Source: a virus. Taken from it: DNA of 64,000 nucleotides. Position numbers and translations under genes: made by a program. The stretch covers positions 1 to 64,000 of the IMG/VR virus record IMGVR_UViG_3300040801_004428; one strand, 5' to 3'. The notes beneath the pieces are model-generated. The model saw only the letters and a list, made by a program, of their open reading frames with translations, searched no databases and had not been told where the DNA came from. This document shows, in pieces, positions 26,492 through 39,877 of this stretch. Every line of letters starts with the position of its first letter. The first letter of the stretch is position 1.

Positions 26492-26495
26492 ATTT

Positions 26496-26525: not shown

Positions 26526-29291
26526 TTAGTAGGAGAACAACTCCTCCGGTTGTAGGGACTCAGATACAATTTGTCCCTCCCAACTAGGGGTTTTAATACT
26601 CCCTCCTTCTTTTGCAAATCGATCCATGATTTCAATAGATTCTGGAAATGCCAGCACGGTTGGTATTTCAAACACCAACCCTAGCGCTTCGATTAACATC
26701 GCCCATGAGAGTAAGTGCGCGACTGCTGCATTTTGAGCGACTTTATACGCATCAGATTTTGCCACCAACCAACCGTATTCATCATGGTAGGGGATCAAGA
26801 ACTTTGCGTCGAGACCCATATGGTTGTTGAAATAATCTGTGAGGGTAATCATTGTGTGCATAAAATCCGCACCGGATCCTTGAATAAAGGCGTTAAATCG
26901 CGATGTTAGTTCTGCATTTGGGCGAGGCAAGTATCTCGTCTGAATTGGCAGGGGTAGTCTAACCCCCAGCAATGGAGTTGCGGGCGTTGGATCTTCCATC
27001 AGGGATAGAACCCCATTAAAGAATTCAGTATGAGTTCCTGACTGCTCCTCGTAGTAGCTAGAACGCAGCTTCTTAGTCCCCCTCATGTATTGTAAGGTCT
27101 CTACAGCGGCAGATTTTGCAAGAGCTTGGTCTGGAATGTGTGCTGCCATTTCTTTCCAGATGGTTTTCGTGGCGGCGGTAACCCCACAGAAGTAGTTTAA
27201 CGCATAGTTGAGCTGCTTCCCGCTGTCACGAGAGTAGTTTGGTAGACCAATCAACGCTCCCAACTTCCGAGCGGTGTTACTATGCGCGTCGGTTTTGTCA
27301 TGTTTGTTACCTGCAAATTGCATGTAGCCAAACGGCGTTATGCCTAGCACTGGAATTGTTGCAAACTTTGAGGCAATTAGCGCAGCAATGAATGCCTCCT
27401 GTGCTGTTACGTCAAAACATACGATTCTCTGCTCTTCGGGTGGAGCAATAAGCATGAGTCGAACTTCATTCCCGATCTTCTTGTCATTTGGGCCCGGAGA
27501 TGGGACCGTTGATAAGACAGGTGATCCAGCCCGGCCTGTGATTGTTTGGTGCGGGACATGGTCGGTTACAATCTTTCCGTTGTAGATGATAGTTCCGTCA
27601 ATCCGGCCGCGCATCGAAGTCCAATAACAGACTTTAATTGCCAGGTCTAGTAGCTCCTGACCTTGTGCAATTTGAGACTTGATAGCCCCGGTCTCGAAGA
27701 ACTCAACGTAGGATTGGTTCAACACTCCTCCTACATTAGCACCAAGGTTCTTCATATGAGGGATTTTAATAACCTCACCTGTGTCATCAACAATGTGGTA
27801 CTTAACCTCCGAGTTGTATAACACCGGATAGTCTTTATACGTCAATCGGGCTAACACATGCGCGAGTTGTGTCTTCGCACCGTAGGCGTCTTTCTTATCT
27901 GCGGTGATATACCAACGGGGTTTACCATAAAGTTCGGGATACTGCGGTACTTTGTATGTCCGCTTGGCGATGATTGGTTTGCCCGTGCGTGGGCTTGGTT
28001 CTTTCTCCCACTTGCCGGGAGTTGCCGCGCACCGGATTTCGTAATTCTTCAGTTTGGTGTTCATTGACCAATCGAGTTGCGACAACCAAGGGTCTGATTC
28101 AGGATCAACGTCCCCACTGAGAAATGCTTTGTACACATTCTTTGCCTCGGCTTTGATGATTTCTTCGAATTGGTGGTTTGCTTCGTGGTAGAGTTTCTCA
28201 CATTTGTGATACCACTCAATGATGTTATCGTCCGCTTTGACTGAGTTGAACGATACTGCTAACATCCCATAGAGGGAGATCATATTGTCTTGCCCAATCT
28301 GCTCGAAGTACTTCATAAGCAAGATTTGGGTGAGTGGGATTAGATCCGCCGCGTCTTGTAGCGAGTATTTGATAATCTCCGCAAAGTGGTCTAACATCTC
28401 ATTGATGTTGCACTTCACGAAATATTCTCGCGTATCTTTAGCATCCTTAGTTCGATTGACCCTATCCGCCAGATGATGCTCTAACAATGAGATTAAGTCC
28501 CCCCGGCAGCCATGCTTAGGCTTGTTGGGGGATTTCATTTGGTTGGAGGTCATTCCCGAAACTTTCTGGTGAAGGGAGAAGGTATCAATGACGAGAATGT
28601 CACACTTGTCTTGGTAGAATTCCTCAGTGCGGATGACGTCAAATCTTGCGTTGTGGGCGATTAGGATCTTGACATGTGGTCCGATGGGTAGTAGTTTAGG
28701 CTGGTAGGGTTCATCAGGTTGGAACCATACCTCATGGAGGTGGATGTACAACTCACCGGTGGCAGTTGCGGCGGTTCCGATAATCGGTGTGTTTGCCATT
28801 GGAAATTCGGATCCCAAGACGTAGGTTTCAGTATCGTAGAAGAGTACTGATTCGGTGGGGTACTCCACTCGGATTGGAGAGCCTAATTTGTCAAGTTTGT
28901 ACCAACCTTCTCCGTCAAACTCATCGATGGAGTATGAGCCCTTGATTTTGTACTTCGGAGTTGGAGGTATCAACGTCGAGAGTAGGCGAATTCGTTTGAG
29001 GTTATCTTCTCCGATTAGTTTACGCGCGGCGGTGTTGGCCCGCTCGCGGAGAGTACTCCCTTGGGGGAGACCTTTAATGATGGTGTCAACCTTATCGATT
29101 AGACTATCAGAAAAAGGTTCTCCAGGCTCGGGTAGTACATCAGTACCAATTTGCTCATTCCATCGTTGCTTAGCATTAGCCACCATCGTCTTAGTAAATT
29201 CAGACATGGCGGGTGGCTCGTACTCGGGTGCAATAGCACGCAGCACTTTGGGGTCTACTGCTGGGTAGCCCATCAATGTTTTATTACTCAT
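26526..29291 (-). CDS. family A DNA polymerase with 3'-5' exonuclease domain
   Basis: Exo motifs FYDTETY and HNARFDV. Pol motif A FDVTAQEAFIAA, motif B RDSGKQLNYALNYFCG, motif C PYHDEYGW. Confidence 0.85.
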   Translation of the reverse strand: MSNKTLMGYPAVDPKVLRAIAPEYEPPAMSEFTKTMVANAKQRWNEQIGTDVLPEPGEPFSDSLIDKVDTIIKGLPQGSTLRERANTAARKLIGEDNLKRIRLLSTLIPPTPKYKIKGSYSIDEFDGEGWYKLDKLGSPIRVEYPTESVLFYDTETYVLGSEFPMANTPIIGTAATATGELYIHLHEVWFQPDEPYQPKLLPIGPHVKILIAHNARFDVIRTEEFYQDKCDILVIDTFSLHQKVSGMTSNQMKSPNKPKHGCRGDLISLLEHHLADRVNRTKDAKDTREYFVKCNINEMLDHFAEIIKYSLQDAADLIPLTQILLMKYFEQIGQDNMISLYGMLAVSFNSVKADDNIIEWYHKCEKLYHEANHQFEEIIKAEAKNVYKAFLSGDVDPESDPWLSQLDWSMNTKLKNYEIRCAATPGKWEKEPSPRTGKPIIAKRTYKVPQYPELYGKPRWYITADKKDAYGAKTQLAHVLARLTYKDYPVLYNSEVKYHIVDDTGEVIKIPHMKNLGANVGGVLNQSYVEFFETGAIKSQIAQGQELLDLAIKVCYWTSMRGRIDGTIIYNGKIVTDHVPHQTITGRAGSPVLSTVPSPGPNDKKIGNEVRLMLIAPPEEQRIVCFDVTAQEAFIAALIASKFATIPVLGITPFGYMQFAGNKHDKTDAHSNTARKLGALIGLPNYSRDSGKQLNYALNYFCGVTAATKTIWKEMAAHIPDQALAKSAAVETLQYMRGTKKLRSSYYEEQSGTHTEFFNGVLSLMEDPTPATPLLGVRLPLPIQTRYLPRPNAELTSRFNAFIQGSGADFMHTMITLTDYFNNHMGLDAKFLIPYHDEYGWLVAKSDAYKVAQNAAVAHLLSWAMLIEALGLVFEIPTVLAFPESIEIMDRFAKEGGSIKTPSWEGQIVSESLQPEELFSY

Positions 29292-29296
29292 CTTTA

Positions 29297-29332
29297 CCTC
29301 TTAGGTCTTTTTTCTATTATACCCTTTCACGC
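29297..29332 (-). promoter_or_regulatory. -10 box plus A-tract leader upstream of the polymerase gene
   Basis: Minus strand reads GCGTGAAAGGGTATAAT-AGAAAAAAGACCTAAGAGG...ATG(29291). Confidence 0.5.
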
Positions 29333-29345
29333 TCGCCAAAGCAAA

Positions 29346-29771
29346 TTACCACCTAAATGTGCGAAAGTTGGAATGGCGAAGCAAGGGTTTCCAGTCCTGC
29401 GCAACATAGTGGTCATATACCACTTGTAAGAAGCGGTAGAACTGACACTCCGAAACTTGCCGGCGGTTTAGCTCCTCTTGTTTGATTAAATCCTTGCAGA
29501 TCCAGTTCTCCAAGGAGACAATCTTCCCTTCGAAGGAGACTCCCATGAATGCCATAGTGGTGTGTTCTTTAACCTCATTGGCGAGAGTCACGGTGGCTAG
29601 GTCCACCTCAAGTTTGAAATTACCTTGGAAGATTATTTTCACCTTTAGTGAAGACTTAGCTTTTGGTTCAAAACTAATGTAGTTCAACCCTTTGAATACT
29701 TCCTCATAAGAAGGATGAGCATTCAATATGTTAGTTGTCTCCTCGACAATTACCCTCTGATCTAGTTTCAT
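29346..29771 (-). CDS. hypothetical protein
   Basis: 141-aa ORF with AGAGG before the ATG. Confidence 0.7.
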   Translation of the reverse strand: MKLDQRVIVEETTNILNAHPSYEEVFKGLNYISFEPKAKSSLKVKIIFQGNFKLEVDLATVTLANEVKEHTTMAFMGVSFEGKIVSLENWICKDLIKQEELNRRQVSECQFYRFLQVVYDHYVAQDWKPLLRHSNFRTFRW

Positions 29772-29776
29772 AAGTA

Positions 29777-29807
29777 CCTCTTAAGTTTTTTTCACGTATA
29801 ACATTGC
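29777..29807 (-). promoter_or_regulatory. TGn-N6-TG-A7 upstream element (copy b)
   Basis: Minus strand reads GCAATGT-TATACG-TG-AAAAAAA-CTTAAGAGG...ATG(29771). Confidence 0.55.
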
Positions 29808-29863
29808 GGCTGGAGTCTGCCTCCTCCGATTTGACCTCAATAGCCTCCTGTCGAATATTATCG

Positions 29864-30400
29864 TTAATAATCTTCAGTAGGCTGAGAGCCGTGCCGGTCA
29901 GCTTCTGGCTGTTGGCTACCAGGTAGTTGGTAGCTTGGGTCATTAATTGCATTCTTTACAATGTCCTCCACGAAGTGTTTGCAATTGTAGCGCACAAGAT
30001 GGTATCGCTTGTGTTTACCACTAACCATCTGGAGCGATTTGTACGTCATGTATTCCAGAATCTTCTGGTTTATCTCAGTGTTCCAAGCTAAACCTGGTAC
30101 TGGCAATACAGTATTTGGATCCCAGGGTTCGTAAGCTGGATGACAGAAGTAGTATCCAGCTGATAATTCGGGATCTTGTAGTTCAGGTCCTGTATAAAGT
30201 CCTAACAACAACGGCCCCGAACTTGTTCCGTGAATTAACACGAAGTAGTGCGGGACCGGTATGTAATAACCATCTGCTGTTTGGATTAGCCCTAATTTGT
30301 ACCACACTAGTGGTGTTTCATCAGGGCTTATCTTTGACTGACTTTCAGGACCCTTAGTGAGGATTTTTAACAAATCTTCATTCAGGATCTTTGGGATCAT
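29864..30400 (-). CDS. H-box/NC thiol hydrolase (LRAT/H-rev107-like, NlpC/P60 superfamily; PPPDE-like is the alternative)
   Basis: ..PHYFVLIHG.. (H-box) and ..YHLVRYNCKHFVEDIV.. (NC motif; compare NCEHFV). The ATG shares a base with the stop of the RHH gene. Confidence 0.5.
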   Translation of the reverse strand: MIPKILNEDLLKILTKGPESQSKISPDETPLVWYKLGLIQTADGYYIPVPHYFVLIHGTSSGPLLLGLYTGPELQDPELSAGYYFCHPAYEPWDPNTVLPVPGLAWNTEINQKILEYMTYKSLQMVSGKHKRYHLVRYNCKHFVEDIVKNAINDPSYQLPGSQQPEADRHGSQPTEDY

Positions 30401-30726
30401 TATTCTGCGGCAACCGCCTCCTTAACAGGTGCAACTGGCTCGAATTGTTGATCTACCGCGAATTGGTACAACTGCGTGGTAACATTATTCATCGGAAGAG
30501 AAAGATTCTGCGCAATGTCTTTAATCGCAGCTTTTACGTCCGTTGAAATTGTAACCGAGGTAGATTCCTCACCCAGTTCAGCCTCGGGGCTAACCGGTGC
30601 GCTGTTTTGTAGTGCATAGTTGAGCATCTGATCGAGATATTCTCGACGACTCATACTTGCTGCGTTTGCTTCAGCGTTGATTGTTTCGCGGTCTACTTTG
30701 ATTTGTACAGAAGCAGTATTAGCCAT
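30400..30726 (-). CDS. ribbon-helix-helix DNA-binding protein (two RHH-like units)
   Basis: ATG at 30726 (MANTASVQIKVDRETINAEANAASMSRREYLDQML..), with a second unit ..VTISTDVKAAIKDIAQNLSL.. . AAGGAG lies upstream. Confidence 0.45.
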   Translation of the reverse strand: MANTASVQIKVDRETINAEANAASMSRREYLDQMLNYALQNSAPVSPEAELGEESTSVTISTDVKAAIKDIAQNLSLPMNNVTTQLYQFAVDQQFEPVAPVKEAVAAE

Positions 30727-30735
30727 TATTTGTGT

Positions 30736-30770
30736 CTCCTTAAGACTTAGTTTTTTTCTTTGGTCGACCC
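30736..30770 (-). promoter_or_regulatory. A7 leader element (copy h)
   Basis: Minus strand reads GGTCGACCAAAGAAAAAAACTAAGTCTTAAGGAGAC. The leader is identical to copy e. Confidence 0.45.
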
Positions 30771-30850
30771 CCTTTGGGATATCTCCATTATATAAGTATA
30801 CGCACTCGGTTTGGGTAATATTATATGAATTACAGGAAAAATTTTTTCTC

Positions 30851-31738
30851 ATGGATTATCGCCAAAAAGCAATTGATCTCATCACAACACGCTGGCAACG
30901 AGAGAATCTCATCAACCATGAGAATGAGATTGATGGCATTCTACGCTCAATTGTGGGACAACCTCCTCGGCCTGCTAACCGCAAACCGTTTGAAGGCCTG
31001 TATGGAATTCGTCCCATGGCAGAATACTACCGCCTGGCTTGGGGAACCATTAAAGCAAATTTGCCCCAAATCTCAGACGAAATTTTAGACTCACTCCTCC
31101 GTGTGTTGGTCAACCAACCGCCAAGGCCAGAAGGCGATGAACCATACATAGGCCTGTTTGGAAAACGACCGCCGGAGGAGGTACAACCTCTCCAGGTTAA
31201 GATCGATAAGAATGTACTACTCCAAGTGCCATATTACTCCCAACGGGATAATAAAAACCAACCATGGAGAGAGTGTTGTAGTAGCTCGGCCGCAATGGTA
31301 GCTGAAGCGCTAAAACCGGGATGTATTAACGGCTCTGATGATTTGTACGTATCAAAGTATGTAAACAAATATGGCGACACTACTAGCCATAGAGTGCATA
31401 CTCTCGCCCTCAAGGAGTTAGGTATTGACTCTCATTGGATCTACAATGGGGATTTTAGAGACATTGATGAGCAATTAGAAAAAGGTTATCCGGTAATGTT
31501 TGCGTACCTCCACCGAGGGTCGGACTCCCACCCCGTTGGTGGCCATTGCGCTGTGATCATCGGAAAGGAAAAAGACGGGTATAAGATCAACGACCCATGG
31601 GGTTCTTACGCGCCGGATTTCTACGACCCATACTGGGGCGCGGGGATTTACTACCCCAAATCGTTTTTCAAATCCCGGTGGTTGGTAAATCAACGTAAGT
31701 CAGGCTGGATGAGAGTAATAGACAATGTTAAAGTGTAA
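30851..31738 (+). CDS. peptidase C39-like (C39_2) cysteine peptidase, candidate endolysin
   Basis: ATG at 30851. ..VPYYSQRDNKNQPWRECCSSSAAM.. (Cys), ..GGHCAVIIG.. (His), ..INDPWG.. (Asp). The N-terminus holds two copies of a 26-aa QPPRP...GL(Y/F)G.RP repeat. Confidence 0.55.
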   Translation: MDYRQKAIDLITTRWQRENLINHENEIDGILRSIVGQPPRPANRKPFEGLYGIRPMAEYYRLAWGTIKANLPQISDEILDSLLRVLVNQPPRPEGDEPYIGLFGKRPPEEVQPLQVKIDKNVLLQVPYYSQRDNKNQPWRECCSSSAAMVAEALKPGCINGSDDLYVSKYVNKYGDTTSHRVHTLALKELGIDSHWIYNGDFRDIDEQLEKGYPVMFAYLHRGSDSHPVGGHCAVIIGKEKDGYKINDPWGSYAPDFYDPYWGAGIYYPKSFFKSRWLVNQRKSGWMRVIDNVKV

Positions 31739-32504
31739 AGGCAATACTAAGCTATGCAAAAAGAAATGCATCCCCCAATGGCAGGAATGTATCGAACCGG
31801 CTGAAAAACCAGCCCCATTAGAAGAACCCGATACATCTTCCTACGACCGATTGTTGGATGACTTCCGATTTTCTTTAGACCTCCGCAGGGATGTACTAAA
31901 ACGCGCGTTTAATACTCCCCTTGAGTCTTCTAAAATCGCAATGCAAAAGATCGAAGAGGGTAACACCTTCATTAGGAGACAAATCTCCCATAATGAGGTA
32001 AACTTCCGCCCTACTTTGAATGAATATGCCATATCGAGAATCAACCGAGCAATTGTAGAATCTTCAAACTCCGCCTGGCAAGCAGTGGAAAAGGCTGCAA
32101 ATATGCTTACCCACTCCCTTGTAGCCCTCCTATGGCAGGAGACAACCCACGAGAAAGTCTACTACCAACAAGTTGTAGCTTCCCTAAATAGACCTGCAGG
32201 CGGGGTTGGTAATACTCTATCAGAGATATGGAACAATGATCTTGACCTTTCTACGTTGAAGGAAACATACGTGAGGTATGTAAAAATAGGCAGAGAAAAC
32301 ATGCTTAGAGATCAAGAAAGCGAATCAGGCTCACCAACTAGGAATGCCATTCACTTTTTTGAAGACTTCAAAGGAGCTGTAACCTTCAGCCTTTCAGAAG
32401 CCTTAATTGGCACGGGGGTTGAATGGAAAGAACCATTTAGCAAAACGTTCCATCTATTCGCAACAATCTACGGAGAGCCAACTAACAGCAATGTCACAAA
32501 TTAA
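31725..32504 (+). CDS. hypothetical protein with N-terminal C-x6-C-x3-C-x6-C motif
   Basis: 259 aa, MLKCKGNTKLCKKKCIPQWQEC.. . Confidence 0.65.
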   Translation: MLKCKGNTKLCKKKCIPQWQECIEPAEKPAPLEEPDTSSYDRLLDDFRFSLDLRRDVLKRAFNTPLESSKIAMQKIEEGNTFIRRQISHNEVNFRPTLNEYAISRINRAIVESSNSAWQAVEKAANMLTHSLVALLWQETTHEKVYYQQVVASLNRPAGGVGNTLSEIWNNDLDLSTLKETYVRYVKIGRENMLRDQESESGSPTRNAIHFFEDFKGAVTFSLSEALIGTGVEWKEPFSKTFHLFATIYGEPTNSNVTN

Positions 32505-34185
32505 ATGCGGACCGGGCAACAAAGCATGCGGTAAGCGCTGCATTCCACAAAAGCATAAATGCGCACTCCGCGGTGAAAAAGACGCCGAGGAGATGAAGCC
32601 CGATAAGGCTAAAAAACAAGAAGATCCTAGAAAACAAAAGAAGGAAAAAGCCGCTCCTGAAGAAAAACCCGAGAAGAAAAAAGGCTCTAAGCTTAAAACC
32701 GCCGCTATTGTAGGCGCGTCTGTGCTTGGTGCTGCCGGTGTTGCGTTTGTCGCGGCGGGTGTTGCTACAGGGAAGGTTAAACTCCCTGGGCAGGATCAAG
32801 CAGTGTCGGCGTTTCAAACAACTAAGGGAGTTGTCACAGACCCTGAACAGCGCAAGGCTGCCATACAACAAGGTCGTCAGCAACTTTCCACGATGACTCA
32901 AACGGTTTCGGAACAAGCCTCCGCGCAGTACGGAAAGGTTTCTGAAGGGTTTAAAGGTATCCAAAAGGCTATACAAAACCCGGGTCAGACCATCAACGCA
33001 ACTTTTTCAAACTCCACGTTGGAAAACATGGGCCAGACTATAGCCCTCGGGTCTAAGTCCGCTTTAGAGGGAGTTTCTTCTTCTGTGAAAGGCTCCGCGA
33101 CTATTATGGCAGCGGCGGGTAAAGACTTATTCGAAAAAGCCGGCGCGGATATGAAAGCAGTGTCAGAAGCCACTACAAATAGCATTCGCGGCGCTGGGGA
33201 TGACATGAAGCAGTATTGGGCAACTATGAAAGATGCCTCACCTTCAGAAATGAAGGCTGCTACTCTAGACCTCGCCGGTAAATACATGGAAGGCGGTCGC
33301 GAAGGTGCAAAAGCTTTCATGCAAGGAGCCGGCGCAAGTGCTAAAGGTGCTGGAGAGACGCTAGGCGCGGCAGGCTCTCTAATCAAAGGTGAAATGGCAG
33401 CCGGAGCTCAAAAGGTCGGAGAATCCGCAGCTTTCATGAAAGAAGGCCTATCATCCTACGCCCCTGAACTCAAAGACCAAGTAGTTGGCGCAGCCCAAGG
33501 TGCTAAAGACATGGCAGGCAATGCAGTCCAAGGTGCCAAAAACATGGCGGGCAATGCTGTCCAAGGCGCACAAAACGCCGCGGGTAGTGCCGTCCAAGGG
33601 GTTAAAGACGCCGCCGGTGCAACAGTCTCCGAAGCGCAACGCGTTGGAGGAGAACTCGGCGCATTTGCAAAAGACGTCGGTGCGGCGGGGCAAGCTATAG
33701 GTGATGCGACCAATCAGGCTGCGCGTCAAGCTGGCGCTGCAGTGACACGAGCCGGCACAGATGTGGCTAGCAGAACTGGTGCGTCGTTTGAAAACGCGGC
33801 GGGGAATATTGCCAGCAGTGCGGAGCAAAACATGCAGGCGGTAGACATTGCCAGAGAAGAGTTGGGGAATAATATCCGCGGTGCTTTGGATGCTCCTGAT
33901 GCTGCAGCTTCTGAAAAGTTGGTCAGCCAAGCGAATGACCTCTACGGTAATGCGCAAGCTGAGGCTGGAAAAAACATCGTGAATACAGCCACCGAGAATG
34001 CCAAAGCATTTATGGGTGATTTCAAAGGTGCCGTTGAGGATAACATGACGGAGATGGTGCAAAAACTAACGGGCGCTGGTCAAACTTGGCAAACGGCCGT
34101 GGCATCCGCTTTTGGATCCCTAAATTCAATGCACGGCGACGGAGCTAGTGGCATTGGTGGGGAAATTGATGATCCTTGGGATTAA
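32491..34185 (+). CDS. membrane-anchored Ala/Gly-rich repeat protein with N-terminal C-x6-C-x3-C-x6-C motif
   Basis: ATG at 32491 (MSQIKCGPGNKACGKRCIPQKHKC..), a Lys/Glu-rich linker, a hydrophobic segment AAIVGASVLGAAGVAFVAAGVATG, then 11-residue amphipathic repeats. Confidence 0.65.
   Translation: MSQIKCGPGNKACGKRCIPQKHKCALRGEKDAEEMKPDKAKKQEDPRKQKKEKAAPEEKPEKKKGSKLKTAAIVGASVLGAAGVAFVAAGVATGKVKLPGQDQAVSAFQTTKGVVTDPEQRKAAIQQGRQQLSTMTQTVSEQASAQYGKVSEGFKGIQKAIQNPGQTINATFSNSTLENMGQTIALGSKSALEGVSSSVKGSATIMAAAGKDLFEKAGADMKAVSEATTNSIRGAGDDMKQYWATMKDASPSEMKAATLDLAGKYMEGGREGAKAFMQGAGASAKGAGETLGAAGSLIKGEMAAGAQKVGESAAFMKEGLSSYAPELKDQVVGAAQGAKDMAGNAVQGAKNMAGNAVQGAQNAAGSAVQGVKDAAGATVSEAQRVGGELGAFAKDVGAAGQAIGDATNQAARQAGAAVTRAGTDVASRTGASFENAAGNIASSAEQNMQAVDIAREELGNNIRGALDAPDAAASEKLVSQANDLYGNAQAEAGKNIVNTATENAKAFMGDFKGAVEDNMTEMVQKLTGAGQTWQTAVASAFGSLNSMHGDGASGIGGEIDDPWD
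33490..33621 (+). repeat. four tandem 33-nt (11-codon) repeats within the CDS
   Basis: Encodes AAQGAKDMAGN / AVQGAKNMAGN / AVQGAQNAAGS / AVQGVKDAAGA. Confidence 0.8.
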
Positions 34186-35937
34186 TCACGTACAACATAG
34201 TGGCTCAAAGAACAGACCAGGATCTCCGGTTTCTTTATACCGGCTCTTGATCTGTTTTGCCATGCGAGCAGCTGAGTTTGGATTATCTTTAGTTGCTCGG
34301 CTGGGATGGCCGAGGTCAATTAGATGTTGTTTCAGCTGCTTGTCGTTAAACAAGCCGAGTTTACCAACCTCAATTAGTTGCTTAAAACTTGCGGCTATAT
34401 CGGACCCTTTGTAGTTGCGCCGCCAGTAGTTATACCACAGGGAGGTAATTCCCGCCTCTGCGGCTTGCTCTTTGTGAGGATCCGTCTGCCGTTTCTTAGT
34501 TTGAGCTTTCTTAGCCGGTGGGGTGTAATCATCCACTGGGAGGATTTCAACCGAGTTGATGGTTAGAGCCTGAAGTTCGGATCTATAATAGTTGCGCGTG
34601 TCATTGTAGCGATCATTCCATAGGTCGTGTTCTCCCCGGGTGGTTTCAATATCCCGTTCGACTTTGCCCTTATCGGATTTTGTAATCCGTTTGATTGATT
34701 GCTTCATAAGCCAGGGCAAATGTTCTGGATATGGCACAATTTTGGCCAGTTCCTCTTCGGGTAGGTCTGTAACCTGGGTCGAATGCTCTCGCGCGTATTT
34801 CAACAACAGAAGTTGGTGCAATTTAATTTGTGTGTCCGCGCGGCGGTTGTATGCAAATTTGCGCAAATAATCGAGGGTAGTTTCCACATAGTAGGTTAGG
34901 TAGTCTCCCTCATTTGTGAATTCAATTGGGCGTGAGGTCTTTGGATCATAGTATTTGAACTTTTCAACGGTGGTTTTGCGCAAGCCCGCGGTATAGAGTA
35001 AGGGTAAGACATCCTTTTCAGTTCTTCCCCGCTTAAGTTGAATCTTAATATGGATTCCAATCTTACCTGATGACAGGTCTTGAACGGATTTGATAGGCAC
35101 ATTGGTGGCCTTCTTCAACTTCTTGACCTTATCGGCCAAGTTTGTGCAGAATTTTGCAGCTGACACATTGGGCGGCAGCGATCGGATGTTGATTACAGAC
35201 CCGTTGGTGTTCCACTCACCGGTGACCACATACGACAATTCGTCTTTCTGCGCAATGCGCCCACCCGTCGGTGGAGTTGGTACCATGCGGTCGGCCGTCC
35301 GACCACGGAGAATTTCCAAAATTTGGTCTTTCAACTGCTGTGGTGTGCGCGCCATAGTTGTATGACTATAGCCAACCGCAATGCCGGTCATGTTCCACAG
35401 TAGGGATAGGGGTAACAGACTGGGTAGATACGTCGGTTCGTAACCTTGCCCGTCGTAGGTTGGCACCATTTGGAGTAATTCCTTATCGATGTAAGGTTTC
35501 ACCATTTGGAACAACAAGTCTGATCCACGGACCTCGGTGTATCGTTCTGCGGCTGGTGGATCCTCACTGATGAGTGCTACGTACTCGCTTCCTTCGGGCG
35601 CTGTGTACATCCACGGGCCATTACCATGCCCGGTGATCATTGGCGCGTGGGAGTTTGACCGATCTGCGAGGTAGCACACTGATCCGTATGAGCCACTATG
35701 TGGGTGGATAGCCATCACCTGGCCTACCAACTTTGCGGATTTCATCAACTTATTGATGTTCTGCGACAAGATTGTCCACAAAATGCGTCGGTAGACTTCC
35801 GATAGTCCGTCGTCCGATGATGGCAAGGCTCTCGACATGACAGAAATCGCATACTCAAAGTATGAATCCTGCATTTCTTTGATTAAAGGTGTGGTTACGA
35901 TCTCACTCGCCTTTCCTATCGTCTGGCGGTTCGTCAT
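34186..35937 (-). CDS. type II topoisomerase A-subunit homologue (GyrA/ParC/T4 gp52-like)
   Basis: ..EYAISVMSRALPSSDDGLSEVYRRILW.. , ..AIHPHSGSYG.. , ..AAERYTEVR.. (active-site Tyr context). Confidence 0.75.
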   Translation of the reverse strand: MTNRQTIGKASEIVTTPLIKEMQDSYFEYAISVMSRALPSSDDGLSEVYRRILWTILSQNINKLMKSAKLVGQVMAIHPHSGSYGSVCYLADRSNSHAPMITGHGNGPWMYTAPEGSEYVALISEDPPAAERYTEVRGSDLLFQMVKPYIDKELLQMVPTYDGQGYEPTYLPSLLPLSLLWNMTGIAVGYSHTTMARTPQQLKDQILEILRGRTADRMVPTPPTGGRIAQKDELSYVVTGEWNTNGSVINIRSLPPNVSAAKFCTNLADKVKKLKKATNVPIKSVQDLSSGKIGIHIKIQLKRGRTEKDVLPLLYTAGLRKTTVEKFKYYDPKTSRPIEFTNEGDYLTYYVETTLDYLRKFAYNRRADTQIKLHQLLLLKYAREHSTQVTDLPEEELAKIVPYPEHLPWLMKQSIKRITKSDKGKVERDIETTRGEHDLWNDRYNDTRNYYRSELQALTINSVEILPVDDYTPPAKKAQTKKRQTDPHKEQAAEAGITSLWYNYWRRNYKGSDIAASFKQLIEVGKLGLFNDKQLKQHLIDLGHPSRATKDNPNSAARMAKQIKSRYKETGDPGLFFEPLCCT

Positions 35938-36355
35938 AGTTTCCTTCCTCCATTAGTATTTTTTCTAACGTTTCGTGGATAAACGCCACGTCGGATTTAT
36001 TCAACCCTGGAGGTGTAAAAGCAACCGTGGCTTTCCAAGCAAGTTTTTTCTTATTAAGAAGGTCGCTCGCGTGGAGGAAGTAGGCCGCTTGTGAGGGCGC
36101 CCACTCAGGGTGTGAGATAATCAACTTGAATCCATCATACAAGGAGTCGTAATGCTCTTCGACCAGCTGATTAGCTTCTGTCACCCTATCAGTGATGTCG
36201 GCCCCAAAGGTGCTGAAAAAATAATGGAGGAGAGTTACTAGGAATTTTACATACTCCGTTCGACCAGACCGCACGAAGGCTTCTAACTCTATGTGAGTAT
36301 TCAAACCATGCAATCTGGACGCCCAGGTTTTATATCTATGAGATTGGTCTAACAT
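35903..36355 (-). CDS. hypothetical protein
   Basis: Start taken at the ATG at 36355, overlapping the upstream stop. Confidence 0.55.
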   Translation of the reverse strand: MLDQSHRYKTWASRLHGLNTHIELEAFVRSGRTEYVKFLVTLLHYFFSTFGADITDRVTEANQLVEEHYDSLYDGFKLIISHPEWAPSQAAYFLHASDLLNKKKLAWKATVAFTPPGLNKSDVAFIHETLEKILMEEGNYDEPPDDRKGE

Positions 36356-36603
36356 GGTAGTACATCCACAATGAGGGTTGGGTACACGCCCGTGTGACAT
36401 CCGCCGGATTTTGGATTATTTAGGATCTTAATCGGCTTGCCAAATCTACCTGGTAGGTTTCTATCCAAATAGAGGTTGCGCGGAATGGGGTATAACATAT
36501 CCGCAGTGGCAATTCCAACAGGTAGAGCTCCCTCCCTGAGGTAGCAAACTCCAACTGCTCCGGGCAATGTTTTTAGTAACGAAAGTGTTCGGGTATTAAT
36601 CAT
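36349..36603 (-). CDS. hypothetical protein
   Basis: Start taken at the ATG at 36603 (ATGATTAA overlap with the upstream stop). Confidence 0.5.
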   Translation of the reverse strand: MINTRTLSLLKTLPGAVGVCYLREGALPVGIATADMLYPIPRNLYLDRNLPGRFGKPIKILNNPKSGGCHTGVYPTLIVDVLPC

Positions 36604-37210
36604 TTTGGTAGTAATCTTCAATTGGATTGGACAACTCTAGGGCTATCACCCTCACTGTGTTGGGGTTTGCATTGCCGTAGCCACGCACATACCCAACAAG
36701 CAGTGAACCGGCAGTGATTGGGCAGTAAGTACTGCTTCCATTGCCGGTTGTGCATTGATGGAGAGCGAGGTCCAAGTAGACGTTAATAAACTCAGAGGTT
36801 ATTGATGAACTTCTTCGGCCTTCTCCTGGTATGATTCTACCATAAACTAGGGAAGAACTAATAGAGGGGTTCTTAGAAAGGTCGAATAACCACACCTGGA
36901 TGTCATCCCTAGGAAAGTTGTACTCTGAAATTATATCGCTAATCTCTTCTTCATCTATCGTAATCTCTAGCCTCAACGCGCGCAGTTGTTCTTGTCTACT
37001 TTCGGCTTTAGTTACAATGAATTCAAAATTCTGAACGAAGGTAAATATAAGCGCAGCAAAAATTGCCACCACGCTATACATAGCCGCCTTGGACCAGGAC
37101 AGACTACTTAGGAGTCTATAAATTAGGGCAGCAATTGTCTCCGGCTGCTCTTCGGCTTGTGTAGGTCTTCGCAGCTGGTCGTTAAGTTGCTTGTGGGGAT
37201 TCTGATCCAT
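36596..37210 (-). CDS. membrane protein
   Basis: 204 aa with a hydrophobic segment (AAMYSVVAIFAALIFTFV). Confidence 0.6.
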   Translation of the reverse strand: MDQNPHKQLNDQLRRPTQAEEQPETIAALIYRLLSSLSWSKAAMYSVVAIFAALIFTFVQNFEFIVTKAESRQEQLRALRLEITIDEEEISDIISEYNFPRDDIQVWLFDLSKNPSISSSLVYGRIIPGEGRRSSSITSEFINVYLDLALHQCTTGNGSSTYCPITAGSLLVGYVRGYGNANPNTVRVIALELSNPIEDYYQND

Positions 37211-37538
37211 ACAGCAGTTCTGAGTTATCTAAGAGGTCATCAAGCTGCTCGGGGGTAAACGCAGCGCTGCTTTGGGGAGGAGCAGGTAGTATTACCTCTT
37301 CGGTTTTAGCGGGCTTGCTGTATTTCAACTCTAGGAGGTTTATTTCATATTCGAGGATTGCCAATGCGCGATCATACACATCGGGGTACGTCTCTTTTAG
37401 GGAGTTTAACCACGGCGCGGAGTATGTTTCTTTGCAGAAGTCTTCAAATGTGTCTAGTTCCACATAGGTTTTTTTCAAATGCCGTTCGTTTGAAAAAATT
37501 TTGTGCAGTCTGCGAAAGGTGGGTAGGGATCTCTTCAT
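37182..37538 (-). CDS. hypothetical protein
   Basis: 118-aa ORF, first gene of the leftward unit that starts at the divergent promoter pair. Confidence 0.6.
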   Translation of the reverse strand: MKRSLPTFRRLHKIFSNERHLKKTYVELDTFEDFCKETYSAPWLNSLKETYPDVYDRALAILEYEINLLELKYSKPAKTEEVILPAPPQSSAAFTPEQLDDLLDNSELLYGSESPQAT

Positions 37539-37554
37539 GGTTAAGTGTCTATTA

Positions 37555-37574
37555 TGCTATAATGATTATATCAG
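37555..37574. promoter_or_regulatory. back-to-back divergent extended -10 boxes
   Basis: Plus strand TGCTATAAT (37555..37563) and minus strand TGATATAAT (37574..37566). The two hexamers are 1 bp apart. Confidence 0.55.
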
Positions 37575-37599
37575 AAAAAAGTGATTAGAGGAAACTTGT

Positions 37600-38421
37600 G
37601 TGAGTAACAAAGACTTGCGTGTAAAGAGAGATCAGTTGAAAATCCTCCGAGATGAGAATTTCCAATTCGGATCTTACTACCTATTACCCAGTGGAGACCC
37701 TGGGCAATACATTGCCATTGAGGGTCTTAGTCCCTCGCGGGCAAGTCGGGTTTTAGATGAGTTTGACCCGCATTGGTACCATCTTTCAATCGTCAACAAA
37801 CTAAAAGACTCATTTATGGAAGCGTATCCGCAAATTGGACCTGAGTTTGTTGAAGATCTAGCTCCAGAAATTGCCCAGAGGTTGAACAAAGTCGCCCAAG
37901 ATAAGGGCAAGCGAGTGCATGAAGCTCTAGAAGAGCCGGAGCAAATGTACATGTTGGATGAAATGGAGACCTTAGTCTACCAGCAGATTCTAAAAGCACT
38001 GAATAAGCTAAACATTGAAGAGTTCATCTACCCAGAACTGTTTATGTTCGGGCATCTAAACACCCAAGATGGGAAGAACAAGATCCCAATCATCTGCTTT
38101 GCTGACTTGGTCACAAAAGATTTGGATGGCAACTGGCGACTAATTGACTTCAAAACCAAGATGAAGTACAATTGTGCAAAACCATCAAAGGAAAACTACC
38201 TCATTCAGGCGTTATTCAACGCTGTTTGTTTTAAGAACCTGTTTGGAGTTTCACTACCGAAGGGTATGGACTTCATTGTAGGAACTCCAGAAAAGTACTG
38301 GATCTTCAACTTCACAATTGAAGAACTGCAAGAATTTGCAACAAAATCAGGAGTAATTCGCAAAATTGAAGAACAATTTACGCCAGAATATGCAGATGCA
38401 GTATCAAATCTGCTTGGATAG
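37600..38421 (+). CDS. PD-(D/E)xK (RecB-like) nuclease
   Basis: GTG start after AGAGGAAA. ..CFADLVTKDLDGNWRLIDFKTK.. followed by ..YLIQALFNAV.. (D ... D/E-x-K ... Q pattern). Confidence 0.55.
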   Translation: MSNKDLRVKRDQLKILRDENFQFGSYYLLPSGDPGQYIAIEGLSPSRASRVLDEFDPHWYHLSIVNKLKDSFMEAYPQIGPEFVEDLAPEIAQRLNKVAQDKGKRVHEALEEPEQMYMLDEMETLVYQQILKALNKLNIEEFIYPELFMFGHLNTQDGKNKIPIICFADLVTKDLDGNWRLIDFKTKMKYNCAKPSKENYLIQALFNAVCFKNLFGVSLPKGMDFIVGTPEKYWIFNFTIEELQEFATKSGVIRKIEEQFTPEYADAVSNLLG

Positions 38422-39370
38422 TATTGCGTACAAATCCAAGCCAAGCTCAAAGACGGATGTGATAACCAACTCCGGTTATGTAACATCCCAAATTGCCCAA
38501 CTATCCGCAAGGATAACGAACAAAACAGTTTCCATTGGCCAACATGAACTCGAACTAGCAATTGCGCAAGGTAAGACATTTACCCTCGGCCAGTTTGGAG
38601 TTTGCCCAACGGCGAAGAGACCGCGTAGGGTGATTGACCTCTTGGAGGTTTTATCAATCATTACGGTGGACTTCGATAATGGCAAACACGAGTTGAGGGA
38701 AATCATTGATTCGGGACTATTTGGCACGGTGTATACCACTTTTAGTAGTACGGCTCTCGAGCCTAAATACAGAGCGATTGGATACCTCCGAGAGCCTATA
38801 TACAACACCGAATCAGCAATCAGACTGTGCAAAGCCGCCTATGCGCAATTCCCCCACGCAGATGCAATCTGCGCTGATGTGACTAGGCTCAACTTTGGTG
38901 GGAGGGAAATCCTCCACTCTGATTCGACCAAAATAGAACCAGAAACAGTCATGGATTTAGTTTCCTCCCAACCGCAGGTTAAATGGAAGTCGGGCAAAGT
39001 GCCAGATATCGACTTTCCGGATTTAACCGACGCCCAACAGCAAAGACTGATTAAGTCAGTCCCACCAAGGGCGCGAAACTACACGGTGGCTGCCTTGCAT
39101 GGGATTGTAAACGAAGTGGTACAATATGACCATAAGATGAAATCCCGATATCAAACTGTCTGGTATGCAGCAATGCAAATTGGTAAACTCACCATCATTG
39201 CGCCAAACATAGCAAGGAAGCTCATCACAGCGGCGATTGAACAAAACCCAGTGTTCGCCGACTGGGACAAAGACCCCGAGTGGGTCATCGACATGGGCTA
39301 TGCCTACGGTCGGAAAGTAATAGACGCAGAACTTATGGAGGATTTGGGAATTGATCTACAGAATGATTGA
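38366..39370 (+). CDS. possible archaeo-eukaryotic-type primase (VirE_N/Prim-Pol-like); start uncertain
   Basis: ..LSIITVDFDNGKHEL.. (DxD-like) and ..TTFSST..PKYRAIGYL.. . TTG at 38366 or ATG at 38390. A weak call made by eye. Confidence 0.3.
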   Translation: MKNNLRQNMQMQYQICLDSIAYKSKPSSKTDVITNSGYVTSQIAQLSARITNKTVSIGQHELELAIAQGKTFTLGQFGVCPTAKRPRRVIDLLEVLSIITVDFDNGKHELREIIDSGLFGTVYTTFSSTALEPKYRAIGYLREPIYNTESAIRLCKAAYAQFPHADAICADVTRLNFGGREILHSDSTKIEPETVMDLVSSQPQVKWKSGKVPDIDFPDLTDAQQQRLIKSVPPRARNYTVAALHGIVNEVVQYDHKMKSRYQTVWYAAMQIGKLTIIAPNIARKLITAAIEQNPVFADWDKDPEWVIDMGYAYGRKVIDAELMEDLGIDLQND

Positions 39371-39863: not shown

Positions 39864-39877
39864 AGACTTTTTGAAAT

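What the first reader, a model, noticed from the sequence alone, without database searches (positions are those of the whole stretch)
31725..32580. A C-x6-C-x3-C-(I)-x5-C mini-motif recurs in at least four places in three to four putative virion or envelope proteins
The same spacing occurs in four places. It is at the extreme N-terminus of the 31725 product (C-KGNTKL-C-KKK-C-IPQWQE-C) and of the 32491 product (C-GPGNKA-C-GKR-C-IPQKHK-C). It occurs twice in the scaffold/protease-like protein: C-KPGHKR-C-GGR-C-IDQDWE-C (nt 63514..63570) and C-PDGMKI-C-NGE-C-IPFKEY-C (nt 63379..63435). A partial version (CC-GDNRAK-C-VPS-C) opens the fibre-like protein at 52825..63. In both the 32491 product and the scaffold-like protein, the motif is followed by a Lys/Glu-rich linker and then an Ala/Gly-rich hydrophobic segment, so they share an architecture. 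I do not recognise this motif as a named domain. It could be a zinc knuckle or a disulfide knot. Because it is shared with the scaffold-like protein, it may be a capsid-targeting or assembly tag for cargo proteins.
Basis: seen in the sequence. Interest (0 to 1): 0.65.

Follow-up and report, generated by a model that had tools for sequence, protein, structure and literature searches.

The report
Cysteine mini-domain heading phage virion proteins
The four-cysteine motif is real: it is an unnamed, widespread ~25-residue mini-domain that, usually with a greasy helix after it, sits at the front of proteins that tailed phages carry in their particles and probably deliver into the host.

Summary
C-x6-C-x3-C-I-x5-C occurs four times in real ORFs at the stated coordinates, against 0.035 expected by chance. 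The fifth "partial" copy in the fibre-like ORF is not a member.

The motif is a conserved module, consensus K-C-x-P-G-N-K-x-C-G-x-R-C-I-P-x4-C. A profile of the window copies finds 86 protein clusters among 1.84 billion, about two-thirds of them phage-type. There the motif lies within the first 45 residues in 54 of 67 proteins. An Ala/Gly-rich hydrophobic helix follows 58 of 86 copies, at a median of 14 residues.

Carriers are encoded next to portal, MuF, protease or tape-measure genes. They bear effector domains: ADP-ribosyltransferase, kinase, J-domain, zincin, lipase, exonuclease.

In the cultured cyanophage vB_AphaS-CL131 the motif occurs in exactly four genes. All four products were found in purified virions by published mass spectrometry.

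C1 and C3 are kept or lost together while C2 and C4 stay, which implies two pairs. The AlphaFold model is a β-hairpin. The only PDB look-alikes, all sub-threshold, are LDL-receptor class A modules. Cellular relatives are secreted. A two-disulfide knot is therefore more likely than a zinc site.

No Pfam, NCBIfam or PHROG family covers it, and no paper searched describes it. The capsid-targeting and membrane-anchoring roles are inferred, not shown.

The parts
31734..31790 (+). Motif copy 1 (CKGNTKLCKKKCIPQWQEC), residues 4-22 of the 259-aa product. It is followed by an acidic linker and no hydrophobic helix.
   Evidence: 32.5 bits; Cys conserved in P0002
31725..32504 (+). Carrier gene 1 (P0001, 259 aa). 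The body is predicted all-alpha and matches no family.
   Evidence: AlphaFold pLDDT 37, not usable
32506..32562 (+). Motif copy 2 (CGPGNKACGKRCIPQKHKC), residues 6-24 of the 564-aa product.
   Evidence: 45.6 bits; AlphaFold pLDDT 80-87 with beta-hairpin at residues 10-13/16-19
32491..34185 (+). Carrier gene 2 (P0003, 564 aa): motif, a 45-aa Lys/Glu linker, a TM-grade helix, then a long Ala/Gly/Gln-rich amphipathic repeat region (apolipoprotein-like).
   Evidence: (PF01442, below cut-off)
32698..32772 (+). Ala/Gly-rich hydrophobic helix of P0003 (TAAIVGASVLGAAGVAFVAAGVATG, aa 70-94).
   Evidence: best 19-aa Kyte-Doolittle window 2.13
63514..63570 (-). Motif copy 3 (CKPGHKRCGGRCIDQDWEC) in the prohead protease-scaffold polyprotein, directly after the protease domain.
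   Evidence: 45.4 bits; Cys, G, K, G, R, I, W and E invariant in P0057 and P0062
63379..63435 (-). Motif copy 4 (CPDGMKICNGECIPFKEYC), a second tandem copy that is absent from the two homologues.
   Evidence: (34.3 bits)
63250..63294 (-). Weakly hydrophobic Ala/Gly segment (GIGAAALSVGIKIAA) after a Lys/Glu linker in the protease-scaffold. It is conserved in the homologues.
   Evidence: KD 1.37 to 1.64
61690..64000 (-). Mu-like prohead protease-scaffold gene. It runs off the window end; the full product is P0005, 814 aa.
   Evidence: PF10123; phrog_976, 1.7e-22
30851..31738 (+). Peptidase_C39_2-like / 'endolysin' gene. It is the first gene of the three-gene + strand cassette, overlaps the start of carrier gene 1, and carries no motif.
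   Evidence: PF13529, 5.5e-8; phrog_10051, 7.6e-48; same synteny in L001

Best explanation
The four copies belong to an undescribed, mobile mini-domain of about 25 residues, consensus K-C-x-P-G-N-K-x-C-G-x-R-C-I-P-x4-C. It is characteristic of proteins carried in tailed-phage virions. It folds as a small beta-hairpin knot resembling the N-terminal lobe of an LDL-receptor class A module. Its four Cys act as two pairs, C1-C3 and C2-C4. These are most likely disulfides that form once the protein is outside the reducing cytoplasm, in the released virion or the periplasm.

Together with the Ala/Gly-rich, fusion-peptide-like hydrophobic helix that usually follows, it forms an N-terminal 'leader unit' placed in front of variable effector bodies. 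Proposed working: the basic knot plus helix keeps the cargo associated with the assembling particle. The window's protease-scaffold carries the same unit, so unit-to-unit or unit-to-acidic-scaffold contacts are plausible. After ejection the helix inserts into the host membrane and holds the effector there.

In this window the unit marks the middle fragment of the protease-scaffold polyprotein and two products of the peptidase cassette. I predict that these two are packaged ejection proteins.

Shown: the module is real and conserved, it is linked to the helix, it is N-terminal, relatives are virion-associated, and the Cys are paired. Inferred: the disulfide chemistry, the packaging role, membrane insertion, and virion location of the window's own two cassette proteins.
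For: The motif is not chance: 4 copies against 0.035 expected.

It is widespread:
- A degenerate DNA scan of IMG/VR gave more than 113 loci, of which about 45 are genuine.
- A stricter pattern gave 18 loci, all genuine.
- A profile of the window copies found 86 protein clusters at E<=1e-3 among 1.84e9.

Architecture:
- 58 of 86 copies have a hydrophobic 16-mer starting within 60 aa downstream, median 14 aa.
- The upstream control is 6 of 31.
- 54 of 67 proteins have the first copy within 45 residues of the N-terminus.

Genomic context:
- Order terminase, portal, large multi-motif protein, MuF-like protein in about 18 loci.
- Fusion to a Mu portal C-terminus.
- Genes beside a head-maturation protease.

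Effector bodies on carriers: ADP-ribosyltransferase, HipA-like and protein kinases, DnaJ, RNase_T, LRAT/NlpC-P60, anthrax-LF-like zincins, lipase/esterases.

Experimental anchor:
- In cyanophage CL131 the motif occurs only in ORF044, 045, 047 and 048.
- All four are among the 23 proteins found by LC-MS/MS in CsCl-purified virions; ORF048 had 175 PSMs and ORF045 had 123 (PMC6293099 Table S5).
- My hypergeometric P is 4.5e-4, but the four genes are adjacent and so not independent.
- PaV-LD has a divergent variant in 7 structural-module genes.

Cys pairing: of non-redundant cores, 103 have all four Cys, 32 keep only C2 and C4, and none is mixed.

Fold:
- AlphaFold pLDDT is 80-87 with a hairpin that places C2 and C3 on opposite strands.
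- All 11 PDB sequence matches to the profile are LDL-A modules, aligned C1 to C4.
- 5 of 8 Foldseek matches are LDL-A modules.
- In LDL-A, C1-C3 is a disulfide (established knowledge).

Cellular relatives carry signal peptides: acidobacterial BON-like proteins and Cys-rich repeat proteins.

The motif is invariant in distant protease-scaffold homologues.
Against: - No direct evidence shows that the window's P0001 or P0003 are in virions. Their genes lie between DNA polymerase and topoisomerase genes on the opposite strand, next to an endolysin-like peptidase. This also fits a lysis or membrane function.
- The phage versions are made in the reducing cytoplasm and are strongly basic (net +4 to +7). 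That favours metal or DNA binding over disulfides and argues against Sec-type export of the N-terminus.
- The LDL-A similarity is below significance: E 0.02 at best in PDB, 13.8-14.2 bits against a 24.1-bit cut-off in Pfam, Foldseek E>2.
- A rare variant, GQTYCIPQGATC, keeps C3 and C4 rather than C2 and C4.
- Repeated units inside one polypeptide are not needed for targeting alone.
- One third of copies, including P0001, lack the helix.
- The CL131 proteomics does not say whether the proteins are in the head or the tail, nor whether the leader is retained.
Confidence: 0.6

Rival explanations
1. Cys4 zinc (or other metal) knuckle. The four thiolates bind one Zn2+ in the cytoplasm, and the basic mini-domain binds the packaged DNA or an acidic scaffold region, as retroviral nucleocapsid knuckles or basic internal head proteins do. 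The 2-Cys versions would form shared sites between subunits.
For: The proteins are made in a reducing cytoplasm without signal peptides, many starting M-x2-4-C. The motif regions are strongly basic. Four Cys lie within 19 residues around a hairpin. The window scaffold has a long acidic region.
Against: There is no CxxC or CxxH knuckle. C1 and C3 are lost together while C2 and C4 stay invariant in 32 independent variants, which a single tetrahedral site does not predict. The closest cellular relatives are secreted proteins, where such clusters are disulfides. All PDB look-alikes are disulfide modules.
Confidence: 0.22
2. Inner-membrane anchor of intracellular (non-virion) phage proteins. For the window cassette this would be a lysis or envelope-remodelling module: an endolysin-like peptidase plus two accessory proteins, with the Cys motif as a juxtamembrane element. 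Virion detection in CL131 would then be a lineage-specific use.
For: The cassette lies outside the structural module and starts with a gene matching a PHROG annotated as endolysin. P0003 has one TM-grade helix and lipid-binding-type amphipathic repeats. J-domain and kinase carriers resemble membrane-tethered cytoplasmic proteins.
Against: Elsewhere the motif genes sit in head or tail modules, not next to lysis genes. PaV-LD's annotated endolysin is far from its motif genes. The same unit lies inside the window's protease-scaffold, which is a procapsid component by definition. P0001 has no membrane helix. P0003 at 564 aa is unlike known holins (own knowledge).
Confidence: 0.12
3. Processing signal. 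The motif (with or without the helix) marks the sites where polyproteins are cut by the prohead protease or by embedded zincins. It therefore appears at unit boundaries and at the N-termini of already separate units.
For: In multi-unit proteins each effector body is preceded by one unit. Zincin domains are common in these proteins, and autoprocessing has been proposed for polyvalent proteins (PMC5512222). In the window protease-scaffold the motif follows the protease domain.
Against: A 25-residue Cys-paired fold plus a helix is far more than known protease sites need. Many carriers have the motif at residues 1-5, where nothing could be cut off. The protease-scaffold has a separate, better candidate cleavage motif, seven repeated F-S-E sites.
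Confidence: 0.06

Closest known systems
LDL-receptor class A (LDL-A / complement-type) module, PF00057
   Same: The spacing and residues match its N-terminal lobe: C1-x6-C2-G-x(2-5)-C3-I-P-x2-W-x-C4. For example, LDLR LA2 reads [22 protein letters not shown]. A beta-hairpin is predicted. C1-C3 behave as a pair. LDL-A modules are the only PDB sequence matches to the profile and the majority of Foldseek matches.
   Different: The whole C-terminal lobe is missing: no C5 or C6 and no acidic Ca2+ cage (D-x-S-D-E). C2 and C4 must therefore pair with each other or do something else. Scores are below every threshold. The phage copies are basic, lack signal peptides and are followed by a hydrophobic helix. 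The likeness may be convergent.
T4-type capsid targeting sequences and injected internal proteins (IPI-III, Alt)
   Same: Both are short N-terminal elements on otherwise unrelated cargo that ends up in the particle and is injected. An Alt-like ADP-ribosyltransferase is among the carriers. Background is from PMC5512222 and my own knowledge.
   Different: The T4 sequence is a roughly 10-residue unstructured peptide without Cys, removed by gp21. Here there is a folded Cys-paired knot plus a helix, often repeated internally. Neither cleavage nor a targeting function has been shown.
Phage polyvalent proteins and MuF- or portal-fused effectors (Iyer, Burroughs, Anand, de Souza, Aravind 2017)
   Same: The genomic setting matches (portal, MuF, head module). 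The effector repertoire matches: ART, zincin, kinase, nuclease, ParB-like. Large multi-domain polypeptides occur, as does fusion to a Mu portal.
   Different: That survey does not describe this motif: 'cysteine', 'disulfide' and 'transmembrane' have no occurrence in its text. Many carriers here are small single-effector proteins. The window's own carriers have no recognisable effector domain.
Stig1-like / myxobacterial Cys-rich repeats (PF04885) and unnamed secreted C-x-x-G-x-K-x-C-G-x-x-C-I-P repeats
   Same: They share the core C-x2-G-x3-C-G-x2-C-[IV]-[PD]. The window profile picks them up as weaker hits. They are extracytoplasmic.
   Different: These are long tandem arrays with 8-15% Cys, extra Cys per repeat, signal peptides and no hydrophobic helix. 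The phage motif itself does not match PF04885.
Ejection / pilot proteins and tape-measure proteins with membrane-inserting segments (T7 gp14-16, P22 gp7/16/20, T5 Pb2)
   Same: These are virion-carried proteins with hydrophobic segments that enter the host envelope. In CL131 and PaV-LD the motif genes lie just upstream of the tape-measure gene.
   Different: No sequence similarity was found, and none of those proteins is known to have this Cys motif (own knowledge, not tested).

Membership tests
LDL-receptor class A module (PF00057) | Score at or above the Pfam gathering threshold | tested here: not met
   13.8-14.2 bits against a cut-off of 24.1, E 0.05-0.07. Best PDB profile match E 0.02.
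LDL-receptor class A module (PF00057) | Six Cys (C1-C3, C2-C5, C4-C6) and a C-terminal acidic Ca2+-binding cluster | tested here: not met
   There are only four Cys. The sequence after C4 is a variable basic or acidic linker with no D-x-S-D-E and no C5 or C6.
LDL-receptor class A module (PF00057) | N-lobe pattern C-x6-C-x3-5-C-I-P-x2-W-x-C with a beta-hairpin and a C1-C3 pair | tested here: met
   Alignment to LDLR LA2; hairpin in the AlphaFold model; C1 and C3 co-vary, 103 / 32 / 0.
Zinc knuckle / zinc ribbon | CxxC or CxxH knuckle pairs | tested here: not met
   The spacing is x6 / x3 / x6 in all copies, with no CxxC.
Zinc knuckle / zinc ribbon | Stoichiometric metal binding | not testable with these tools
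   This needs ICP-MS or spectroscopy on protein.
Stig1-like Cys-rich repeat (PF04885) | Match to the family model | tested here: not met
   The window motifs give no PF04885 hit. Only the myxobacterial look-alikes P0010 and P0017 match.
Capsid-targeting leader of packaged or injected proteins (T4 CTS-like, functional class) | N-terminal position on otherwise unrelated cargo | tested here: met
   54 of 67 phage-type proteins have the first copy within 45 residues, and the bodies are diverse.
Capsid-targeting leader of packaged or injected proteins (T4 CTS-like, functional class) | Carriers are present in purified virions | tested here: met
   This holds for relatives only. CL131 ORF044, 045, 047 and 048 are all in the LC-MS/MS virion list. 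It was not tested for the window's own proteins.
Capsid-targeting leader of packaged or injected proteins (T4 CTS-like, functional class) | The leader is necessary and sufficient for encapsidation | not testable with these tools
   This needs reporter-fusion and deletion experiments.
Polyvalent proteins (Iyer et al. 2017) | Two or more effector domains in one polypeptide, encoded with a portal-terminase packaging module | tested here: inconclusive
   Met by relatives: L027 with two zincins, L008 and L074, CL131 gp048 with three hydrolase domains. Not met by the window's P0001 and P0003, which have no recognisable effector domain.
Holin / lysis accessory protein | Small membrane protein (1-3 TM) encoded with the endolysin and needed for lysis | tested here: inconclusive
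   P0003 has one TM-grade helix and follows an endolysin-like gene, but it is 564 aa. P0001 has no TM helix. Function was not tested.

The most novel reading that the evidence does not exclude
The unit is a self-associating, redox-sensitive delivery leader. Copies embedded in the protease-scaffold recruit N-terminally tagged cargo into the procapsid, through knot-knot or helix-helix contacts or through binding to the acidic scaffold. Disulfides lock the knot once the virion is in oxidising water. On infection the fusion-peptide-like helix inserts into the host membrane, so that lipases, kinases, J-domains and ADP-ribosyltransferases act at the entry site. This would be a general, portable address tag for loading and delivering proteins by environmental phages, including cyanophages.
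Probability: 0.2. Interest if true: 0.85.

Novelty: new variant of a known kind. Interest (0 to 1): 0.62.

Why it matters
How tailed phages choose which proteins to load into the particle and deliver to the host is understood for only a few model phages, such as the T4 targeting peptide and MuF or portal fusions.

A short, recognisable and portable leader shared by unrelated uncultured phages, including cyanophages of bloom-forming genera, would have three uses:
- It gives a sequence handle for predicting the injected 'cargo' proteome directly from metagenomes.
- It flags dozens of unannotated effectors for study: lipases, kinases, J-domain proteins, ADP-ribosyltransferases, zincins.
- It offers a candidate tag for loading foreign proteins into phage particles.

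It also defines a new minimal Cys-paired fold related in pattern to half of an LDL-A module. That fold is shared between phage virion proteins and secreted bacterial proteins.

Tried and rejected
- **Whole-protein homology.** The 259-aa product has only one relative and the 564-aa product has none among 5.8e9 proteins, so function could not be read from homologues.
- **Word-indexed search with the motif alignment.** It found 5 candidates and one hit, so it was nearly useless.
- **Related-locus search with the protease-scaffold in IMG/VR.** Nothing was found.
- **tblastn of typical carriers against 50,697 cultured-phage records.** There was no match, or J-domain-only matches. Only a concatenate of eight motif variants found CL131, at E=2; that hit was then verified by HMM and regex.
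- **AlphaFold of the full 259-aa protein.** pLDDT was 37, so no fold search was run on it.
- **Fetching the rest of the window's contig, or long contigs for the protease homologues.** This failed, or gave only 4-9 kb contigs.
- **PaV-LD virion proteomics paper (PMC3255931).** It is not held.
- **Readings rejected.** Chance or low complexity. Membership of the fibre-protein 'partial copy'. True LDL-A, Stig1 or zinc-knuckle membership (see membership tests). Relatedness of the window phage to CL131: no shared proteins at E<1e-4. A motif general to Mu-like protease-scaffolds: the Nodularia phage 2AV2 homologue lacks it.

Full report
**1. Observation**

I translated the window in six frames and searched for C-x6-C-x3-C-x6-C, which gave five hits.
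- 31734-31790(+), residues 4-22 of a 259-aa product
- 32506-32562(+), residues 6-24 of a 564-aa product that starts at the ATG at 32491
- 63514-63570(-) and 63379-63435(-), in the ORF 61690-63996(-) that runs off the window

The fifth hit, 32709-32765(+), is an out-of-frame reading of Ala/Gly codons. Two hundred shuffles of the window gave a mean of 0.035 hits and a maximum of 1.

An HMM built later from 42 non-redundant copies scores the four at 45.6, 45.4, 34.3 and 32.5 bits. The next best window ORF scores 2.5 bits. The 'partial version' at 52825-63 in the fibre-like ORF is therefore not a copy.

The shared architecture is real:
- The 564-aa protein has a 45-residue Lys/Glu linker and then a TM-grade helix (aa 70-94; best 19-residue Kyte-Doolittle window 2.13).
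- The protease-scaffold has a Lys/Glu linker and a weaker hydrophobic segment (1.37).
- The 259-aa protein has no such helix.

**2. The window**

The window is part of a roughly 118-kb phage contig. Its recognisable genes are:
- A Mu-type head module: Portal_Mu (41815-43659), major head protein (60032-61048), and a Mu-like protease-scaffold (61690 to beyond 64000; full product P0005, 814 aa).
- Baseplate J, DNA polymerase, primase, topoisomerase II and ribonucleotide reductase.

The protease domain is weakly similar to those of Nodularia cyanophages.

The two small carrier genes form a three-gene + strand cassette with overlapping stops and starts. The cassette begins with a Peptidase_C39_2-like gene that matches a PHROG annotated as endolysin (30851-31738). 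It is wedged between minus-strand replication genes. The cassette, including both motifs, is conserved in one 3.4-kb metagenomic contig at 77% identity.

**3. The motif is a widespread module**

No Pfam, NCBIfam or PHROG model covers it. The only hits are sub-threshold: LDL-A at 13.8-14.2 bits against a 24.1 cut-off, and a myxobacterial Cys-rich family at 17 bits against 100.

Searches beyond the window gave the following:
- A degenerate DNA pattern for C-x2-G-x3-C-G-x2-C-I-x5-C in IMG/VR returned more than 113 loci. About 45 are clearly the same motif; the rest are Cys-rich junk.
- A tighter pattern (C-x-PG-x-K-x-CG-xx-CIP-x4-C, chance expectation well below 1) returned 18 viral loci, all genuine.
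- The same tighter pattern returned 26 loci in the genome collection.
- A 30-column profile of the four window copies plus two close hits found 86 protein clusters at E<=1e-3 among 1.84 billion representatives.

By Cys content and score these 86 fall into two groups:
- A phage type (67 proteins, Cys below 4.5%).
- Secreted Cys-rich repeat proteins with signal peptides. Some of these are Stig1-like.

**4. Anatomy of the phage type**

The consensus is K-C-x-P-G-N-K-x-C-G-x-R-C-I-P-x4-C.
- In 54 of 67 proteins the first copy starts within the first 45 residues, often at residues 1-5.
- Fifteen proteins have two or three copies.
- Of 86 copies, 58 are followed by a charge-free Ala/Gly-rich 16-mer starting within 60 residues (median 14). 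The upstream control is 6 of 31, and random windows of the same proteins give 32%.

Variants exist:
- A C-x5-C spacing.
- An abundant 2-Cys form, K-P-C-G-x-S-[HFYG]-I-P-x4-C.
- A rare form that keeps only C3 and C4.

In large proteins, each effector-like body is preceded by one such unit.

**5. What the carriers are**

Gene neighbourhoods place them in virion modules:
- About 18 loci have the order terminase, SPP1-type portal, 1000-1500-aa multi-unit protein, MuF-like minor head protein, and, a few genes further on, a small 165-aa carrier.
- One locus adds three small carriers after MuF.
- One locus fuses the unit to the C-terminus of a Mu portal.
- One locus has five carriers upstream of a head-maturation protease.

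The bodies attached to the unit include:
- ADP-ribosyltransferase (Alt-like), HipA-like and protein kinases, DnaJ
- RNase_T exonuclease, LRAT/NlpC-P60, anthrax-LF-like zincins
- lipase/esterase alpha/beta hydrolases

This is the setting and repertoire described for phage 'polyvalent' and MuF- or portal-fused injected effectors. That paper never mentions a Cys motif or a transmembrane element (PMC5512222). Two further literature searches found no description.

**6. Experimental anchor**

A concatenate of motif variants found one cultured phage, Aphanizomenon phage vB_AphaS-CL131. I scanned its whole 112,793-bp genome. The motif is in exactly four genes, and in each case a hydrophobic helix follows:
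- ORF044, ORF045 and ORF047, with one copy each.
- ORF048, with four 4-Cys copies and one 2-Cys copy, plus lipase-like domains.

These genes lie between the head/neck genes and the tape-measure gene.

The published LC-MS/MS of CsCl-purified CL131 virions lists 23 proteins out of 149 ORFs. All four carriers are among them (PMC6293099 Table S5):

| ORF | PSMs | Coverage |
|---|---|---|
| ORF048 | 175 | 54.6% |
| ORF045 | 123 | 56% |
| ORF047 | 24 | 38% |
| ORF044 | 9 | 46% |

By my own arithmetic the hypergeometric probability is 4.5e-4. The genes are adjacent, so they are not independent draws.

Other comparisons:
- CL131 shares no other protein with the window at E<1e-4, so the motif is a mobile module rather than a lineage marker.
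- Planktothrix phage PaV-LD has a divergent variant in seven genes, all in its structural cluster.
- In the window's own lineage, two 29-31%-identical protease-scaffold homologues keep the first motif invariant (four Cys plus G, K, G, R, I, W, E) and keep the hydrophobic segment. The second copy is a window-specific insertion.
- The more distant Nodularia phage protease-scaffold lacks the motif.

**7. Chemistry and fold**

I examined non-redundant cores of the form x-G-x2-x-[IV]-P-x4-C in low-Cys phage proteins:
- 103 have C1, C2 and C3.
- 32 have only C2, with C1 and C3 both absent and C3 replaced by H, G, F or Y.
- None has C1 without C3 or the reverse.

C4 is fixed by the pattern. The Cys therefore behave as two pairs, C1-C3 and C2-C4. 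The second pair is conserved without the first. Two disulfides predict this; a single Cys4 metal site does not.

Three further lines agree:
- AlphaFold, using a 72-sequence alignment, gives pLDDT 80-87 over the motif and a beta-hairpin (residues 10-13 and 16-19) with C2 and C3 on opposite strands.
- The profile, searched against all PDB sequences at E<=10, returns 11 sequences, every one an LDL-receptor class A module aligned C1 to C4 (best E 0.02). Five of eight Foldseek matches are also LDL-A modules, all at E>2. These matches are not significant one by one. They are consistent with each other, and in LDL-A C1-C3 is a disulfide (established knowledge).
- The strict motif in cellular genomes lies in proteins with signal peptides. 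These are acidobacterial BON-like proteins with the motif at the C-terminus, and myxobacterial or Chloroflexi Cys-rich repeat proteins. One phage-type copy lies in a Pseudanabaena assembly.

Against disulfides, the phage proteins are made in the cytoplasm and are strongly basic (net +4 to +7 for the N-terminal copies). I put a disulfide knot at about 55-60%, a metal site at about 25%, and something else for the remainder.

**8. Mechanism**

The following is shown:
- The module is a conserved, portable unit.
- It is linked to a downstream hydrophobic helix.
- Its position is predominantly N-terminal.
- It occurs in virion proteins and virion gene modules.
- Its Cys are paired.

The following is inferred. 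The unit is a leader for proteins that are loaded into the particle and delivered to the host envelope. The window's protease-scaffold carries the same unit, so the unit is inside the procapsid during assembly. Cargo could be held there by unit-unit contacts or by binding of the basic knot to the long acidic scaffold region.

The Ala/Gly-rich helices resemble viral fusion peptides (own knowledge). Many attached bodies act on membranes (lipases, an LRAT-type enzyme) or make sense when tethered (J-domain, kinase). That fits insertion into the host membrane after ejection.

On this model the window's P0001 and P0003 are ejection proteins, and the upstream peptidase may be a virion-associated wall hydrolase.

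The main rival for these two genes is a lysis or envelope module. It cannot be excluded, because the cassette lies outside the structural genes. The 259-aa body could not be modelled (pLDDT 37).

**9. Comparison and novelty**

In pattern the motif is half of an LDL-A module, but it fails that family's defining features: six Cys, the Ca2+ cage and the gathering score. It is neither a zinc knuckle by spacing nor Stig1 by model.

In function it is closest to capsid-targeting leaders and to the polyvalent or MuF effector systems. It differs from both in being a folded Cys-paired knot plus a helix that recurs inside polypeptides.

I rate it a new variant of a known kind. It is an undescribed domain family, marking a class of phage virion cargo that was otherwise unannotatable.

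Noticed in passing
window 61690-63996 (-), protease-scaffold; P0005 residues 163, 529, 543, 684, 717, 751, 767: The tripeptide F-S-E occurs 7 times in the protease-scaffold. That is 7 of the 10 occurrences in all window ORFs of at least 100 aa. It recurs 5-6 times, partly at aligned positions, in the homologues P0057 and P0062. It has the x-x-E look of T4 gp21-type cleavage sites (own knowledge). The first site lies about 25 residues upstream of motif 1, so cleavage there would leave the motif near a new N-terminus, as in free-standing carriers.
   Followed up: partly
window 33487-33618 (+), inside the 32491 product: There are near-perfect 11-residue repeats (GAKDMAGNAVQ / GAKNMAGNAVQ / GAQNAAGSAVQ ...) within a roughly 430-residue Ala/Gly/Gln-rich amphipathic region. 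The region gives a sub-threshold Apolipoprotein (PF01442) match, which suggests a lipid- or surface-binding helical repeat.
   Followed up: partly
window 30851-31738 (+): The C39_2-like 'endolysin' has an N-terminal duplication (…GQPPRPANRKPFEGLYGIRP… / …NQPPRPEGDEPYIGLFGKRP…) ahead of the papain-like domain. Its stop overlaps the start of the first motif gene, and the stop of that gene overlaps the start of the second, which suggests translational coupling of all three.
   Followed up: no
window 32709-32765 (+): A fifth exact match to the Cys spacing (CRRVCAWCCRCCVCRGGCC) is an artefact. It is the +1-frame reading of the GCN/GGN-rich codons of the hydrophobic helix.
   Followed up: yes
L115-L140 (genome contigs); e.g. 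L116, L132, L138: Acidobacteria (Pyrinomonadaceae, Chloracidobacterium) encode a family of roughly 130-160-aa secreted proteins: signal peptide, a BON-like domain with two Cys, then the same motif in an acidic version (GCGPGTKPCGxICIPxxExC) at the very C-terminus. This cellular use of the mini-domain is unannotated.
   Followed up: partly
L141 5211-10646 (CL131 ORF048); L008, L074 (IMG/VR): Virion protein ORF048 of cyanophage CL131 carries three lipase/esterase-type alpha/beta-hydrolase domains (GHSAGG), each behind its own motif-plus-helix unit. Unrelated marine viral contigs have a similar C-terminal hydrolase on their multi-unit proteins. Virion-borne lipases in cyanophages appear not to have been discussed.
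   Followed up: partly
P0006, P0007, P0012, P0035; L136 (Pseudanabaena sp. 'Roaring Creek' contig): A group of phage-type proteins combines one or two motif-plus-helix units with a DnaJ J-domain. This architecture recalls membrane-tethered J-proteins. One close relative sits in a Pseudanabaena genome assembly, which points to cyanobacterial hosts.
   Followed up: partly
L145/L146 (Planktothrix phage PaV-LD): ORF061R, 065R, 078R-081R, 085R: Seven structural-cluster genes of PaV-LD share a divergent N-proximal version of the motif (KPQCVKPTAYNCGKACINIKNNC). It is followed by a Lys/Pro-rich linker rather than a helix. Two of these genes are each followed by a gene annotated as 'minor head protein'.
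   Followed up: partly
window 43663-46680 (+): The 1005-aa ORF immediately after the Mu-type portal, where MuF sits in Mu, matches no Pfam family and only one PHROG weakly (tail protein, E 9e-4). It contains one F-S-E site. It may be a diverged MuF-effector fusion.
   Followed up: no
window 48898-50805 (-): The ribonucleotide reductase large subunit has a C-terminal stretch that matches a thioredoxin-domain PHROG (residues 560-621, E 1.2e-5), so it is possibly a fused redoxin.
   Followed up: no
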